A stretch of 64,000 bases of DNA from Chakrabartia sp. (GCA_046074265.1 JBJTNW010000012.1:21594-85593); one strand, 5' to 3'. Numbered from the stretch's first letter, positions 3,255 to 22,264 are shown. Numbers and translations: made by a program. Notes: generated by a model from the sequence alone, not told the origin.

Positions 3255-3869
3255 ATGCACCCGCACGACGCGCTGATCCCCATCGTTATCGAACAATCGA
3301 ATCGCGGGGAGCGCAGCTTTGACATTTATTCGCGGCTTTTGCGGGAACGCATCGTCTTTGTGACGGGCGGGATTGAGGACAATATGGCGTCGGTCATCGT
3401 CGCCCAGTTGCTGTTCCTCGAGTCGGAAAATCCGAAGAAGGATATCTGGATGTACATTAATTCGCCGGGCGGGGTCGTCACGGCGGGCATGGCGATCCAC
3501 GATACGATGCAATATATTCGGCCCAAAGTGGGCACGGTGTGCGTTGGGCAGGCCGCGTCGATGGGCTCTTTCCTCCTCTCGGCGGGGGAGCCGGGCATGC
3601 GCGTGGCGCTCACCAATTCGCGAATCATGATCCACCAGCCGTCGGGCGGGGCGCAGGGTCAGGCGACCGATATTGCCATTCAGGCGCAGGAAATCCTGCG
3701 GATTCGCGCGAGCATGAACAAGCTCTATTCGCAATATACGGGCAAGGATATCGAGACGATCGAGAAGGCGATGGAGCGCGATAATTTTATGACCGCGCTT
3801 GAGGCCAAGGATTTCGGTCTTATCGACGCCGTGTTCGATAAGCGCCCGGAAGCAACAGAAGAAGCATAA
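3255..3869 (+). CDS. clpP: ATP-dependent Clp protease proteolytic subunit
   Basis: [33 protein letters not shown] (catalytic Ser), IMIHQPSGG; AAAGGA RBS before ATG 3255. Confidence 0.97.
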
Positions 3870-3965
3870 GGCTAAGCCGGCTGACGAGACAGTCAGCTGA
3901 AATTAAGCCATTGCCGCTATAAAATCTGATTGTAACATGGCCGCAAACGTGGCGGGAAGGTTCTG

Positions 3966-5237
3966 ATGACCAAGTTGAGCGGCAACGATACCAAGAGCAC
4001 GCTTTATTGCTCTTTCTGCGGAAAGTCGCAGCATGAGGTGCGCAAGCTCATTGCCGGGCCGACGGTATTCATCTGCGATGAATGCGTTGATCTGTGCAAC
4101 GACATTATCCGCGAGGAAACCAAATCAGCGCTCGTCTCCAAAAAGGATGGCGGCGTGCCGACCCCGGCAGAGATTTGCAAGGTGCTGGACGATTATGTGA
4201 TTGGCCAGTCCAAGGCCAAGCGCGTCCTCTCGGTGGCTGTTCACAACCATTATAAGCGGTTGAACCATGGCGCAAAGGGCGCGGATGTGGAACTTGCCAA
4301 GTCCAACATCCTGCTTGTCGGCCCCACGGGTTGCGGCAAGACGCTGCTCGCCCAGACGTTGGCGCGCATCCTTGATGTGCCCTTCACCATGGCCGACGCC
4401 ACGACGCTGACCGAAGCCGGCTATGTTGGGGAAGATGTTGAAAACATTATCCTGAAGCTGCTTCAGGCATCTGATTATAATGTGGAGCGGGCCCAGCGCG
4501 GGATCGTCTATATCGACGAAATCGACAAGATCAGCCGCAAGGCGGAAAACCCCTCCATCACCCGCGACGTGTCGGGCGAAGGCGTGCAGCAGGCGCTGTT
4601 GAAGATGATGGAAGGTACGGTTGCCAGCGTCCCGCCTCAGGGGGGGCGAAAGCACCCGCAGCAAGAATTTCTGCAAGTGGATACAACCAATATCCTCTTC
4701 ATCTGCGGCGGCGCCTTTGCGGGTCTTGAAAAGATCATCGCAGATCGCTTGCAGGGCAAGTCGATTGGCTTTGGCGCGCATGTCTCTGCCCCGGATGAAC
4801 GCCGCACCGGCGATATCTTGAAGCAGGGTGAGCCGGAAGATCTGCTGAAATACGGCCTGATCCCGGAATTTGTCGGGCGTCTGCCCGTTATCGCCACGTT
4901 GGAAGATCTGGATGTTGATGCGCTCGTCAAAATCCTGGTCGAACCCAAGAACGCGCTGGTGAAGCAGTATAAGAAGCTCTTCGAAATGGAAGAGGTGGAT
5001 CTCGACTTCACCGATGATGCGCTGACGGCCGTCGCCAAGCGCGCGATTGAACGCAAAACGGGCGCGCGCGGTCTCCGGTCCATCCTTGAGGGCATTTTGC
5101 TCGACACGATGTTCGACCTGCCGTCGATGGACGATGTCGATCAGGTGATGATCGACAAGGATGTCGTGGCCGGCACGAAAGAGCCGGTGCGGGTCTATGC
5201 GAAAAAGGCAAAGGAAGTGGCGGGCGACGCGGCCTAA
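3966..5237 (+). CDS. clpX: ATP-dependent Clp protease ATP-binding subunit ClpX
   Basis: CSFCGK zinc finger, GPTGCGKT Walker A, YIDEIDK Walker B, RKHP loop, GARGLR. Confidence 0.98.
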
Positions 5238-5266
5238 GGCGCCAACCCTGTGCTTTGGTATTCCTC

Positions 5267-5295
5267 AAAGGGTCGGGCCTAGCCCGGCCCTTTTT
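5267..5295 (+). terminator. Intrinsic terminator after clpX
   Basis: GGGTCGGGC-CTA-GCCCGGCCC stem followed by TTTTT; A-run on the 5' side. Confidence 0.8.
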
Positions 5296-5336
5296 GTATG
5301 TGCTAGCACTCCGGCAGATAATCAGAGGAGAGCCGA

Positions 5337-5813
5337 ATGTCCGTCCATGATTTCAGCGTGAAAAAGCCGGATGGCAGCGAGCAGAAGCTCGCCGATTTCA
5401 AGGGTGGGCCGATGCTGATCGTCAACACCGCCTCCAAATGCGGCTTTACCCCGCAATATAAGGGGCTGGAAGCGCTTCACCGCACCTATGGCCCAAAGGG
5501 GCTGACCGTGATCGGCTTTCCCTGCAACCAGTTCGGCGCGCAAGAGCCGGGCGATGCAGAGGAAATTAAGAATTTCTGTTCGCTCACTTATGACGTCACC
5601 TTTCCCCTGATGGCGAAGATTGAGGTGAACGGCCCGGGCGCCGACCCGCTTTATGAGCATCTGAAAGCGGAAAAGCCGGGCGTGCTGGGCACCAAGGGCA
5701 TCAAGTGGAATTTCACGAAATTCCTGATCGACAAAAACGGCAAAGTTGTTGGCCGCTATGCGCCAACGGATAAGCCCGAGGCGCTGGCCAAGGATATTGA
5801 AAAGCTGTTGTGA
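5337..5813 (+). CDS. Glutathione peroxidase family protein (Cys type)
   Basis: VNTASKCGFTPQY, GFPCNQFGAQEPG, IKWNFTKFL motifs. Confidence 0.93.
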   Translation: MSVHDFSVKKPDGSEQKLADFKGGPMLIVNTASKCGFTPQYKGLEALHRTYGPKGLTVIGFPCNQFGAQEPGDAEEIKNFCSLTYDVTFPLMAKIEVNGPGADPLYEHLKAEKPGVLGTKGIKWNFTKFLIDKNGKVVGRYAPTDKPEALAKDIEKLL

Positions 5814-20856: not shown

Positions 20857-21011
20857 AAGCCTTGTTCATGCTGCATTCGGACTTTGGCTCCTAGGCGGCA
20901 TTCGGTATAGCTTTGCGCGGCTCGCTTGCCGGCTCGTTGCAAGGCATTGCTTTACAGGCGGGGCTCCATGGTGAAGAAGGCGCGCTTCCATTTGTCGAAA
21001 GGACCCGTTTC

Positions 21012-21917
21012 TTGGCCATTTCCGCTGTCATAATTGCGACGGCCCTGACGGGTGCGGCGGTTGATCCGGCGGCGGTTGATCCCGCCCAGCCTGCCCAACA
21101 GACAGCGCCTCTCGAAAATGCTCAGCCCCCATCCGGGCAGCCGCCCGCAGTGGTGCCCACACAGGCGGTGCTGCCCAGCGCGCCGCCCTCTATTGCCAGC
21201 ACGGCTGATGCACCGGACGATATTGTCGTGACTGCCAAGCGCCGTGCCATCGCGGCGGACCCGCTTGAAAATATAAACGAAACCAGTTTTGAGGTCGTCC
21301 AGTCGGTGGACAAGGCGATCGTTGGTCCGGTCGCGATTGCTTATCGCGACAAGGTGCCGGGGCCGATCCGCAAGGGCATCCGCAACTTCCTCTCGAACAT
21401 CGGCGAGCCGATCATGTTCGTGAACTTCATGCTCCAGTTGAAGCCGGGCAAGGCCGCCGAAACAGCCGGGCGCTTTGCGATCAACTCAACCATCGGCGTT
21501 GCCGGGGTGATGGATGTGGCGAAGAAAAAGCCGTTCCATTTGCCGCACCGGATCAATGGCTTTGCCTATACAATGGGCTATTACGGCATCAAATCTGGTC
21601 CCTATCTCTATCTGCCGCTGATTGGACCAACCACCGTGCGCGATGTGACCGGCCGGATCATGGATTTGATGCTGCTGCCGCTTGCGGTCGGCAAGCCGCT
21701 CAACAATCCTTATTACGCCTTGCCGGCCGGCGTGCTCAGTTCGCTGGATGATCGGGCTGAATTTGATGCAGAGCTTACCCGGCTGCGGACCCAGTCGGGC
21801 GATCCCTATGCGGCCCTGCGCGCTTATTATCTGAACAAGCGCCAAGCCGAAATTGATGCGCTGCGCGGAAAGCCAAGTCCGCCGCCAATTCCCGAGCCGC
21901 CCAAGCTGACGCATTAA
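21012..21917 (+). CDS. mlaA: MlaA/VacJ family outer-membrane lipid transport protein (no lipobox Cys)
   Basis: DPLE..NE..F, IRNFLSNIGEP, RFAINSTIGVAG..DVA, GPYLYLPLIGPTTVRD, DPYAALR..Y; TTG start 8 nt after AAAGGA. Confidence 0.85.
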   Translation: MAISAVIIATALTGAAVDPAAVDPAQPAQQTAPLENAQPPSGQPPAVVPTQAVLPSAPPSIASTADAPDDIVVTAKRRAIAADPLENINETSFEVVQSVDKAIVGPVAIAYRDKVPGPIRKGIRNFLSNIGEPIMFVNFMLQLKPGKAAETAGRFAINSTIGVAGVMDVAKKKPFHLPHRINGFAYTMGYYGIKSGPYLYLPLIGPTTVRDVTGRIMDLMLLPLAVGKPLNNPYYALPAGVLSSLDDRAEFDAELTRLRTQSGDPYAALRAYYLNKRQAEIDALRGKPSPPPIPEPPKLTH

Positions 21918-21985
21918 GGCCGGCCCGGCGCAAGGCTCCCAATTCGGGCGTTGCGCTGGGGCGGGCTTTGCGGCATGGCGCGGCC

Positions 21986-22264
21986 ATGACTGATACGCCT
22001 CCTGATCGCCTCTCCATTGACCCCGCCAGCCCCTATTTTGACGTAGAGGTTCTGCGCCGGGGTGTTGGCATTCGTTTTCGCGGTGTCGAGCGCCGCGATG
22101 TCGAGGAATATTGCATGTCGGAAGGCTGGGTGCGCGTGCAGGCGGGCAAGACCATGGATCGCAAGGGCAAGCCGCTTTTGCTCAAGCTCTCTGGCCCGGT
22201 TGAAGCGTGGTTTGAGCAGGCCGGGGATGCGCAGGCAGGTGAGGAGCCTGCCGCCGAGGCGTGA
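21986..22264 (+). CDS. DUF3297 family protein
   Basis: PPDRLS.DP.SPYF...GVGIRF.G.ER.DVEEYC.SEGWVRV pattern recognised from memory. Confidence 0.75.
   Translation: MTDTPPDRLSIDPASPYFDVEVLRRGVGIRFRGVERRDVEEYCMSEGWVRVQAGKTMDRKGKPLLLKLSGPVEAWFEQAGDAQAGEEPAAEA

What the first reader, a model, noticed from the sequence alone, without database searches (positions are those of the whole stretch)
21012..21917. MlaA/VacJ without a lipoprotein cysteine but with a TonB-box-like motif
Seen: the whole ORF contains no Cys, so it cannot be a lipoprotein. After a Sec-type signal (MAISAVIIATALTGA) comes a Pro/Ala/Gln-rich linker and then DDIVVTAKRR (21216-21245) just before the MlaA core. Established: canonical MlaA is an OM lipoprotein docked on OmpC/F porins; E/D-I-V-V-T-A-x-R is the typical TonB box of alphaproteobacterial TonB-dependent receptors; sphingomonads use glycosphingolipids instead of LPS. 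Inference: a variant Mla pathway in which MlaA is anchored differently and may be coupled to TonB/ExbBD energy.
Basis: partly seen in the sequence, partly recalled or inferred. Interest (0 to 1): 0.62.

Follow-up and report, generated by a model that had tools for sequence, protein, structure and literature searches.

The report
MlaA carrying a TonB-box-like motif
Sphingomonad bacteria have an outer-membrane lipid-handling protein (MlaA) that lacks the usual lipid anchor and instead carries, at the same spot, a strictly conserved copy of the short motif that nutrient receptors use to dock onto the energy-transducing protein TonB. This suggests, but does not prove, that lipid housekeeping in their outer membrane is coupled to the cell's proton-driven motor.

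Summary
The gene at 21012-21917 (+), with a TTG start and a conserved Shine-Dalgarno sequence, encodes a 301-aa MlaA/VacJ protein (Pfam E 3e-59; fold match to solved MlaA, TM 0.76-0.82). It has no cysteine. Its layout is an N-terminal hydrophobic segment, a variable Pro/Ala-rich linker, DDIVVTAKRR (21216-21245), and 6 residues later the MlaA core.

The motif is not chance. About 86% of 117 close homologs and roughly two thirds or more of 150 more distant representatives carry [DE][DE]-I-[VI]-V-T-[AG]-[RKQ]. It sits at a fixed 6-7 residues before the core, inside an otherwise unconserved stretch that AlphaFold2 leaves disordered.

The motif matches the TonB box of sphingomonad TonB-dependent receptors, including flanking charges and the substitutions allowed at the Thr. 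It scores 16.6 bits; 1 in 5 million random 11-mers reaches that.

A sister clade in the same bacteria has the same Cys-less layout but no box (0 of 108). That clade lies in hopanoid gene clusters and is HpnS.

Cys-less MlaA homologs are already in the literature. A TonB box on MlaA is not: no paper in the searched library (open-access PMC and bioRxiv) holds both terms. TonB binding and energy coupling remain untested inference, which I put at about 45%.

The parts
20998..21004 (+). Shine-Dalgarno-like GAAAGGA, 7 nt before the TTG start
   Evidence: Conserved as GAAAGG(A/G) 6-9 nt upstream of the TTG in the window, L001, L006 and L007
21012..21917 (+). mlaA-type gene (clade A): 301 aa plus stop, TTG start, no Cys codon
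21012..21062 (+). N-terminal hydrophobic segment MAISAVIIATALTGAAV. Probably a Sec signal peptide, but it has no K/R n-region
   Evidence: AF2 helix at residues 2-14. 131 clade A proteins start this way and only 3 have K/R in the first 8 residues. Cleavage was not tested
21063..21215 (+). Variable Pro/Ala/Gln-rich disordered linker. It contains a perfect 15-bp tandem duplication (21054-21082, AAVDP x2)
   Evidence: pLDDT about 46-56. No conserved columns. Linker composition A 21%, P 20% across orthologs. TRF score 58
21216..21245 (+). TonB-box-like motif DDIVVTAKRR (core IVVTA at 21222-21236)
   Evidence: Conserved logo. It matches the TBDR TonB-box logo. PSSM 16.6 bits, reached by 1 of 5e6 random 11-mers. 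Clade A 86% versus clade B 0% above threshold. pLDDT below 50, so it is not packed on the core
21246..21254 (+). Start of the short spacer (AIA of AIAA) between the motif and the 'DP' that opens the core. The spacer length is fixed at 6-7 residues counted from the end of IVVTA
21255..21848 (+). MlaA core domain (PF04333), helical ring fold
21849..21914 (+). C-terminal helix end and Pro-rich tail (…RGKPSPPPIPEPPKLTH)
21968..22264 (+). DUF3297 gene 50 nt downstream. A neighbour, not shown to belong to the system
   Evidence: Pfam E 3.6e-37. It follows mlaA in the window, L001, L006 and L007, and lies near hpnS/hpnN in L129

Best explanation
The gene encodes the stand-alone ('housekeeping') MlaA of a sphingomonad. 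[quoted passage not shown]

Its N-terminal tail hangs into the periplasm. Immediately before the first core helix, at the position where enterobacterial MlaA has its acylated Cys, the tail carries a genuine TonB box. My proposal is that this strand pairs by beta-augmentation with the C-terminal domain of a TonB-family protein. In that model the ExbB/ExbD/TonB motor can pull on helix alpha-1 of MlaA and so gate or drive its lipid channel. This would be the first TonB-coupled, non-barrel outer-membrane lipid transporter.

Shown here:
- MlaA identity and fold.
- Absence of Cys.
- Order-wide conservation of the motif, its fixed position and its predicted disorder.
- Its quantitative match to local TBDR TonB boxes.
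- Its absence from the paralog HpnS.

Inferred, not shown: signal-peptide cleavage, periplasmic exposure, TonB binding, and what the pull does.
For: 1. The motif is conserved in about 110 of 120 close homologs and in most of 150 representatives clustered at 50% identity. It lies at a fixed -16/-15 from the core 'DP', within a hypervariable linker.
2. AF2 gives pLDDT below 50 for residues 61-76 and no packing on the core. This is the behaviour of a linear docking motif.
3. In Sphingobium SYK-6 the TBDR TonB box is hydrophobic-x3 plus Thr (IIVT in DdvT), and V42A/T43A abolish uptake (PMC6874591).
4. The logo of 117 sphingomonad TBDR N-termini is [DE][DE][PE][DE]-I-[VI]-V-T-[GA]-[QS]-R. The MlaA logo is [ED][DE]-I-[VI]-V-T-[AG]-[RKQ]. 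Both tolerate the same replacements at Thr: Q, E, R, V, S.
5. With a PSSM built from the TBDR boxes, the window motif scores 16.6 bits, reached by 1 of 5e6 random 11-mers. MlaA orthologs are the best non-TBDR hits in 43.5k residues of window plus loci.
6. Internal control: the paralog clade B has the same Cys-less layout in the same taxa, yet 0 of 108 exceed the threshold, against 86% of 117 in clade A.
7. Metagenomic TBDRs read DIVVTA[RQ][RK]R, which is the same 9-mer type as DIVVTAKRR.
8. The motif aligns about 12 residues before DPLE, where the lipidated Cys of solved MlaA sits, at the periplasmic face.
9. MlaA function is known to depend on open/closed gating (10.1101/192500).
10. A TonB box on a non-TBDR OM protein has been proposed before, for GltB (PMC9946355).
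Against: - There is no experimental or co-folding evidence for TonB binding.
- No tonB/exbBD gene lies next to mlaA in any locus seen.
- The bare hexapeptide DIVVTA is not specific. Of 58 in-frame metagenomic occurrences, only 19 are TBDR N-termini. The rest are internal beta-strands of cytoplasmic folds.
- Only 6-7 residues separate the box from the membrane-embedded core, which may leave little room for a TonB C-terminal domain.
- The TBDR logo comes from one receptor family, and I located the box in it with a regex similar to the motif. That is partly circular.
- Signal-peptide cleavage is unproven, because the N-terminus lacks the usual positive n-region.
- Whether these genomes encode MlaC/MlaFEDB could not be checked, because the genome tools were shut.
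Confidence: 0.45

Rival explanations
1. The conserved strand docks onto a partner other than TonB by beta-augmentation. Candidates are the outer-membrane barrel that replaces OmpC/F as the MlaA scaffold in sphingomonads, TolA, the periplasmic carrier MlaC, or a chaperone. The likeness to a TonB box would then reflect only the general requirements of an edge strand.
For: - A conserved, disordered, alternating hydrophobic strand is what any beta-augmentation motif looks like.
- DIVVTA also occurs as an ordinary beta-strand in many unrelated folds.
- E. coli MlaA needs a porin partner (review).
- The short, fixed 6-7-residue spacing to the core suggests a partner sitting at the membrane surface.
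Against: - The match to TBDR boxes goes beyond the hydrophobic core. It includes the acidic residues before the motif, the basic residues after it, and the same substitution spectrum at Thr.
- MlaA contacts porins within the membrane through core regions, not through its N-terminus.
Confidence: 0.25
2. The motif is a small interfacial membrane anchor or structural element that took over the role of the missing acyl chains. I-V-V would dip into the inner leaflet while the following Lys/Arg residues bind anionic head groups.
For: - It occupies the same position as the lipidated Cys of enterobacterial MlaA.
- It is followed by K/R/Q and often by R-x-R.
- It is at fixed distance from helix alpha-1.
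Against: - MlaA does not need its lipid anchor to stay in the OM.
- The equally Cys-less paralog HpnS has no such element.
- Three aliphatic residues make a weak anchor.
- The invariant V, the T to E/Q/R tolerance and the acidic residues upstream fit a strand-pairing motif better than a membrane wedge.
Confidence: 0.15
3. The motif is a sorting or assembly signal. It would direct a non-lipidated, helical OM protein to the outer membrane without the Lol pathway, for example by recognition by BAM/TAM or a periplasmic chaperone.
For: - A Cys-less MlaA cannot use Lol, so some alternative route is needed.
- The N-terminal signal segment is itself unusual, with no K/R.
Against: - HpnS and other SPase-I-type MlaA homologs reach the same problem without this motif.
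- No known OM-sorting signal has this sequence.
Confidence: 0.1
4. The motif is a chance resemblance with no function.
For: Short motifs recur by chance, and DIVVTA is common in proteins.
Against: - Order-wide conservation at a fixed position in an otherwise free-drifting linker.
- A random 11-mer reaches the score with probability about 2e-7.
- None of the 108 paralogs scored reaches the threshold.
Confidence: 0.03

Closest known systems
MlaA/VacJ of Enterobacteria (E. coli, Klebsiella, Serratia; PDB 5NUO, 5NUQ, 8I8R)
   Same: - Same Pfam domain (PF04333).
- Same helical ring fold (TMt 0.76-0.82), about 35% identity in the core.
- The Gly-rich region before the gating hairpin is conserved.
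   Different: - No lipobox or Cys.
- A long disordered Pro/Ala N-terminal extension.
- A TonB-box-like strand where the acylated Cys would be.
- Two arginines that are invariant in E. coli and in clade B (the R of 'FNR' and the R of 'xRP' in helix alpha-1) are replaced in clade A.
- Partner porin and MlaC/MlaFEDB were not verified.
HpnS, the MlaA-family protein of hopanoid gene clusters (Lawrence et al. preprint, PMC12324291)
   Same: Sister clade within the same sphingomonads. It has the same Cys-less, hydrophobic-start plus Pro/Ala-linker architecture.
   Different: - HpnS sits between hpnM (MlaC-like) and hpnN (MMPL), next to shc and hpnH.
- It keeps the FNR and RP arginines and has no TonB-box motif (0 of 108).
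- The window gene is stand-alone and is not in a hopanoid cluster.
TonB box of TonB-dependent receptors (E. coli FepA DTIVVTA and BtuB DTLVVTA, both from memory; Sphingobium DdvT IIVT, PMC6874591)
   Same: - Sequence consensus, acidic lead-in and basic follow-up.
- Location in a flexible segment N-terminal to the functional domain, on the periplasmic side of the OM.
- Conservation pattern.
   Different: The motif is attached to a helical, inner-leaflet lipid channel rather than to the plug of a 22-strand barrel. Binding to TonB has not been shown.
Proposed TonB box on GltB of the Myxococcus gliding machinery (PMC9946355); TolA box of TolB (from memory)
   Same: These are precedents for a motor-docking strand on an unstructured N-terminal extension of an OM or periplasmic protein that is not a nutrient receptor.
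   Different: They belong to different protein families and systems. The GltB box is itself only predicted.
SPase-I-type (non-lipoprotein) MlaA homologs noted in MlaA phylogenies (review PMC11131202)
   Same: Absence of the lipoprotein signal.
   Different: No TonB-box motif has been described for them. No paper in the library holds 'MlaA' or 'VacJ' together with 'TonB box'.

Membership tests
MlaA/VacJ family (PF04333) | Pfam MlaA domain above the gathering score | tested here: met
   200 bits against a cut-off of 25, E 3.4e-59, profile positions 2-194 of 195
MlaA/VacJ family (PF04333) | Helical ring fold of solved MlaA | tested here: met
   AF2 core pLDDT about 85-95. Foldseek matches 5nuq, 5nuo and 8i8r with E 2e-8 to 3e-7 and TMt 0.69-0.82
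MlaA/VacJ family (PF04333) | Lipoprotein signal with lipobox Cys (as in the E. coli equivalog) | tested here: not met
   No Cys in the ORF. The NCBIfam equivalog PRK15091 scores 114 bits against a cut-off of 375. Non-lipoprotein homologs are known in the family
MlaA/VacJ family (PF04333) | Conserved 'DPLEGFNR … RP' arginines of helix alpha-1 | tested here: not met
   Clade A has A/E/V and G/A/E at the two Arg positions. Clade B keeps R in 100%
MlaA/VacJ family (PF04333) | Works with MlaC and MlaFEDB and docks on a porin | not tested
   The genome search and the fetch from genomes were shut. No mla genes lie in the window
TonB box (docking motif of TonB-dependent transporters) | Sequence consensus of the local TBDR TonB boxes | tested here: met
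   16.6 bits with a TBDR-derived PSSM, reached by 1 of 5e6 random 11-mers. The logos match position by position
TonB box (docking motif of TonB-dependent transporters) | Lies in a flexible, periplasm-exposed segment N-terminal to the transport domain | tested here: inconclusive
   AF2 shows disorder and no packing. The position equals that of the N-terminal Cys of solved MlaA. Topology and signal-peptide cleavage are only inferred
TonB box (docking motif of TonB-dependent transporters) | Binds the TonB C-terminal domain, and function depends on TonB/ExbBD and the proton motive force | not testable with these tools
   No multimer prediction is allowed and there is no genome access. This needs experiment
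TonB-dependent receptor (TBDR) | Plug domain plus 22-strand beta-barrel | tested here: not met
   Only the MlaA domain is found, and the core is all-helical. The protein is not a TBDR
HpnS (hopanoid-cluster MlaA paralog) | Encoded next to hpnM (MlaC-like), hpnN (MMPL) and shc; falls in clade B | tested here: not met
   The window neighbours are aroA, a FYDLN_acid protein, a photolyase-like gene, DUF3297, Metallophos and FMN_dh. The protein falls in clade A. Clade B loci L129 and L130 show the hopanoid context
Sec/SPase I signal peptide | Positive n-region, h-region, and small residues at -3/-1 | tested here: inconclusive
   An h-region is present, and T-G-A could serve as -3/-1. There is no K/R in the n-region here, and in only 3 of 131 orthologs. 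No predictor was available

The most novel reading that the evidence does not exclude
Clade A MlaA of Sphingomonadales is a TonB-dependent lipid channel. Mislocalised lipid in the channel would expose the box, and TonB (or a dedicated TonB paralog) would bind it. Proton-motive-force-driven pulling on helix alpha-1 would then open the periplasmic gate or eject the lipid. On this reading, outer-membrane lipid homeostasis in these LPS-free, glycosphingolipid-coated bacteria is energised at the outer membrane itself. It would be the first TonB client that is neither a beta-barrel nor an importer of nutrients.
Probability: 0.3. Interest if true: 0.85.

Novelty: new variant of a known kind. Interest (0 to 1): 0.66.

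Why it matters
How lipids are moved out of, or into, the outer membrane is a long-standing open question, because no ATP is available there. The direction and driving force of the Mla pathway are still disputed.

A whole bacterial order whose MlaA carries a conserved TonB box offers a natural, directly testable case of possible proton-motive-force coupling at the OM lipid channel. It would also widen the client list of TonB beyond barrel transporters.

The case comes with a built-in control: the box-less paralog HpnS in the same cells. Sphingomonads are genetically tractable and non-pathogenic, and public transposon fitness data may exist for some of them (recalled from memory, not checked here). 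The idea can therefore be tested quickly.

Tried and rejected
- The genome search and the fetch from genomes were shut. I could not look for MlaC/MlaFEDB, TonB paralogs, TBDRs or an HpnS copy in the window's own genome.
- The search for related loci in genome contigs returned only 4 loci. Taxon sampling therefore rests on names attached to database proteins. All named members of both clades are Sphingomonadales, and the outer limits of the box-bearing clade were not established.
- Walking along the window's contig by exact-protein look-up failed. One edge protein was found only on an unrelated metagenome contig, and the other was not on record.
- There is no TBDR or TonB-like gene in the window. 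The TBDR comparison therefore uses a Sphingobium fluviale receptor family and metagenomic TBDRs.
- The metagenome scan for DNA encoding DIVVTA showed that the hexapeptide alone is not diagnostic (19 TBDR N-termini among 58 in-frame hits). One apparent small 'non-TBDR' hit (L102) is a cytoplasmic MarR-GNAT protein and was rejected.
- I rejected the longer reading from TTG 20913 or 20937 with an R-T-R n-region. The upstream frame is not conserved as protein, and L006 has no upstream start.
- I considered an inner-membrane-anchored, periplasm-spanning tether (N-terminal helix plus Pro-rich linker, as in TonB). It is unlikely. The hydrophobic segment is only about 14 residues, and the motif lies as few as 53 residues from the Met in some orthologs (range 53-135), leaving a linker of roughly 35 residues at the short end.
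- The promoter/terminator scan was uninformative.
- There is no conserved operon partner except DUF3297 in the closest relatives.

Full report
**1. What is in the sequence**

The + strand frame is open from 20913 to 21917.
- A Shine-Dalgarno-like GAAAGGA lies 7 nt upstream of the TTG.
- The same GAAAGG(A/G)-N6-9-TTG arrangement is kept in three orthologous loci (L001, L006, L007).
- The translated upstream frame differs completely between them.
- L006 has no in-frame ATG, GTG or TTG upstream at all.

The product is 301 aa and contains no cysteine. DDIVVTAKRR is encoded at exactly 21216-21245.

**2. It is an MlaA**
- Pfam PF04333 matches residues 115-312 of the long reading (window 21255-21848) with 200 bits, E 3.4e-59.
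- Sequence search of the PDB finds only MlaA chains (5nuo_D, 5nuq_G, 8i8r_D; E 1e-29 to 1e-26).
- An AlphaFold2 model built on 61 homologs (mean pLDDT 77.6, core about 85-95) is all-helical apart from one small beta-hairpin. It matches those structures with target-normalised TM scores of 0.69-0.82.
- The E. coli-type equivalog model of NCBIfam is far below its cut-off (114 against 375 bits). The protein is therefore a family member but not an E. coli-type ortholog.

**3. Architecture**

Residues 1-17 are a hydrophobic segment, predicted as a helix at 2-14. Residues 18-68 are a Pro/Ala/Gln-rich stretch with pLDDT about 46-56. They include a perfect 15-bp tandem duplication that encodes AAVDP twice (21054-21082). 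The motif is D69-D70-I71-V72-V73-T74-A75-K76-R77-R78. The family-wide 'DP' that opens helix alpha-1 follows at residues 82-83.

In the PDB alignment, query residue 81 pairs with residue 13 of the crystallised chains. The motif therefore lies where enterobacterial MlaA has its acylated N-terminal Cys, at the periplasmic face of the outer membrane.

**4. Is the motif more than chance?**

Yes, on four counts.
- **Close homologs.** Among the 120 best database homologs (52-100% identity) about 110 carry it.
- **Logo.** In the 100 sequences where the core start could be found by a strict pattern, position 0 is I in 96, position 1 is V in 80 or I in 19, and position 2 is V in 100. Position 3 is T in 95, and position 4 is A in 74 or G in 25. 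D/E precede the motif and R/K/Q follow it.
- **Spacing.** In the same 100 sequences, the spacer to 'DP' is 6 residues in 43 and 7 residues in 56.
- **Isolation in the linker.** In the 61-sequence alignment V73 is invariant and I71 is at least 90% conserved. These are the only biologically meaningful conserved columns between the start and the core.
- **Distant homologs.** The motif persists in most of 150 representatives of 50%-identity clusters, down to about 40% identity, always 15-16 residues before 'DP'.

AF2 gives pLDDT below 50 for residues 61-76 and does not pack the strand on the core. A strongly conserved strand inside a disordered, freely drifting linker is the signature of a docking motif.

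**5. Is it TonB-box-like?**

*Published evidence.* In Sphingobium sp. SYK-6, TonB-dependent receptors share a box of three hydrophobic residues plus Thr. In DdvT this is IIVT, and V42A/T43A abolish uptake (PMC6874591).

*Logo comparison.* I took a receptor from locus L002 (Sphingobium fluviale, 3374-5746) and collected 120 homologs through its N-terminal region. Of these, 117 have [DE][DE][PE][DE]-I-[VI]-V-T-[GA]-[QS]-R. This is the MlaA logo almost position by position. It includes the rare replacements tolerated at the Thr: Q, E, R, V, S in receptors, and S, V, E, Q, N, R, K in MlaA.

*PSSM scoring.* A position-specific scoring matrix from 79 distinct receptor boxes gives the window's motif 16.6 bits. 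One of 5 million random 11-mers of matching composition reaches that score. In 43,555 residues translated from the window and loci, the top hits are the receptor itself and then the MlaA orthologs.

*Metagenome scan.* A scan for DNA encoding DIVVTA returned 58 in-frame cases. Nineteen are receptor N-termini of the type DIVVTA[RQ][RK]R.E.LQ.VP, which is the same 9-mer type as DIVVTAKRR. The rest are internal strands of cytoplasmic folds. The hexapeptide alone is therefore not diagnostic. The exported, disordered context and the flanking charges make the case.

*Caveat.* The receptor logo comes from one family, and I located the box in it with a pattern related to the motif.

**6. An internal control: the paralog**

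A tree of 134 core domains splits the homologs into two groups.
- **Clade A:** 113 representatives, nearly all with the box. The exceptions are conservative variants such as IVIT.
- **Clade B:** one strongly supported clade of 18 representatives (SH-like support 100), none with the box.

All named members of both clades are Sphingomonadales: Sphingomonas, Sphingobium, Novosphingobium, Parasphingorhabdus and Chakrabartia.

Clade B proteins have the same layout (hydrophobic start, Pro/Ala linker, no Cys in 110 of 111) but no box. With the receptor PSSM, 86% of 117 clade A proteins exceed the 1e-5 random threshold, with a median of 16.6 bits. None of the 108 clade B proteins does, and their median is -7.6 bits.

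Clade B genes lie in hopanoid clusters. The order is squalene synthases, HpnE-like oxidase, squalene-hopene cyclase, HpnG, HpnH, IspH, then an MlaC-like gene, the MlaA-like gene and an MMPL transporter (L130; L129 is similar). That is the HpnM-HpnS-HpnN arrangement proposed for hopanoid trafficking (PMC12324291).

The box-bearing protein is therefore the stand-alone, presumably general MlaA of sphingomonads. Its neighbours vary between genera and never include tonB or exbBD.

**7. What is already known and what is not**

Non-lipoprotein, SPase-I-type MlaA homologs that cluster apart from lipoprotein ones are mentioned in a recent review (PMC11131202). E. coli MlaA stays membrane-embedded without its lipid anchor (10.1101/192500). 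The missing Cys is therefore neither new nor problematic.

No paper in the searched library contains 'MlaA' or 'VacJ' together with 'TonB box'. A TonB box on a non-receptor outer-membrane protein has a predicted precedent in GltB of Myxococcus (PMC9946355).

**8. Mechanism proposed (inference)**

After export, the N-terminal tail is periplasmic. The box pairs with the C-terminal domain of a TonB-family protein. Force from ExbB/ExbD is then applied, six to seven residues away, to helix alpha-1.

In E. coli, MlaA switches between closed and open states controlled by a hairpin next to the channel, and the gain-of-function mlaA* (delta-NF) mutation lies next to that hairpin; from memory, the deleted residues lie in this first helix. 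Clade A has also replaced two arginines of alpha-1 that are invariant in clade B and in E. coli: the R of 'FNR' and the R of 'xRP'. This fits a changed role for that helix.

Which lipid is moved is not addressed by the data. It could be phospholipid, or something specific to a glycosphingolipid outer leaflet; that sphingomonads lack LPS is established knowledge, not tested here.

I put TonB-family binding at about 45%, and the full energised-gating model at about 30%.

**9. Rivals**
- Docking to another partner, such as a scaffold barrel, TolA, MlaC or a chaperone: about 25%.
- An interfacial mini-anchor replacing the acyl chains: about 15%. This is weakened because HpnS lacks it and MlaA needs no anchor.
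- A Lol-independent sorting signal: about 10%.
- Chance: about 3%.

**10. Limits**

The genome tools were shut, so Mla partners, TonB paralogs and the window organism's own receptors could not be examined. No multimer prediction was possible. Signal-peptide cleavage is unverified, and the N-terminus is atypical: K/R occurs in the first eight residues in only 3 of 131 clade A proteins.

**Verdict**

This is a new variant of a known kind, and its key claim is cheap to test.

Noticed in passing
window 21012-21062, and orthologs (P0002-P0269, P0426-P0538): Both sphingomonad MlaA clades begin directly with a hydrophobic segment of about 14 residues and no positively charged n-region. K/R occurs in the first 8 residues in only 3 of 131 clade A proteins; clade B typically starts MLAAHLIAASLA. 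TBDRs of the same bacteria have ordinary MKK-type signal peptides. This is an unusual export signal, or an uncleaved segment.
   Followed up: partly
window 21054-21082: A perfect 15-bp tandem duplication (GCGGCGGTTGATCCG x1.9) encodes AAVDP-AAVDP in the linker. It shows that the linker evolves by slippage while the adjacent motif stays fixed.
   Followed up: partly
window 21258-21330 (helix alpha-1), and clade A generally: Clade A has lost two arginines that are invariant in clade B and in E. coli MlaA. 'DPLEGFNR' becomes DPLExxN[A/E/V], and 'xRP' becomes [G/A/E]P. This divergence of the first helix goes together with gain of the box.
   Followed up: partly
L129 8001-9008 and L130 8001-9050: The box-less MlaA paralog of sphingomonads sits in hopanoid clusters, next to an MlaC-like gene (L130) and an MMPL transporter (both loci). 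This matches the HpnM-HpnS-HpnN proposal. It is also Cys-less, so 'HpnS lipoprotein' does not hold for sphingomonads.
   Followed up: yes
window 21968-22264; L001 1823-2086; L006 3975-4217; L007 3979-4242; L129 13032-13355: A DUF3297 gene follows mlaA by about 50-70 nt in the window and its closest relatives. A DUF3297 gene also lies just beyond hpnS/hpnN in Novosphingobium sp. G106. It is absent next to mlaA in L002-L005. A link between DUF3297 and MlaA-family genes is possible.
   Followed up: partly
L002 3374-5746: A sphingomonad TonB-dependent receptor family of 750-1000 aa is mostly missed by Pfam's precomputed barrel models; only Plug is listed, and for only a few members. It carries a Gly-rich insert (…GGGPARGGGGFGGRGGAAGG…) and long acidic low-complexity N-termini before the TonB box.
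   Followed up: no
P0024 (database protein): An apparent MlaA-aldehyde dehydrogenase fusion (376 aa, partial MAG record) starts inside the MlaA core. It is most likely an assembly or gene-calling artefact.
   Followed up: no
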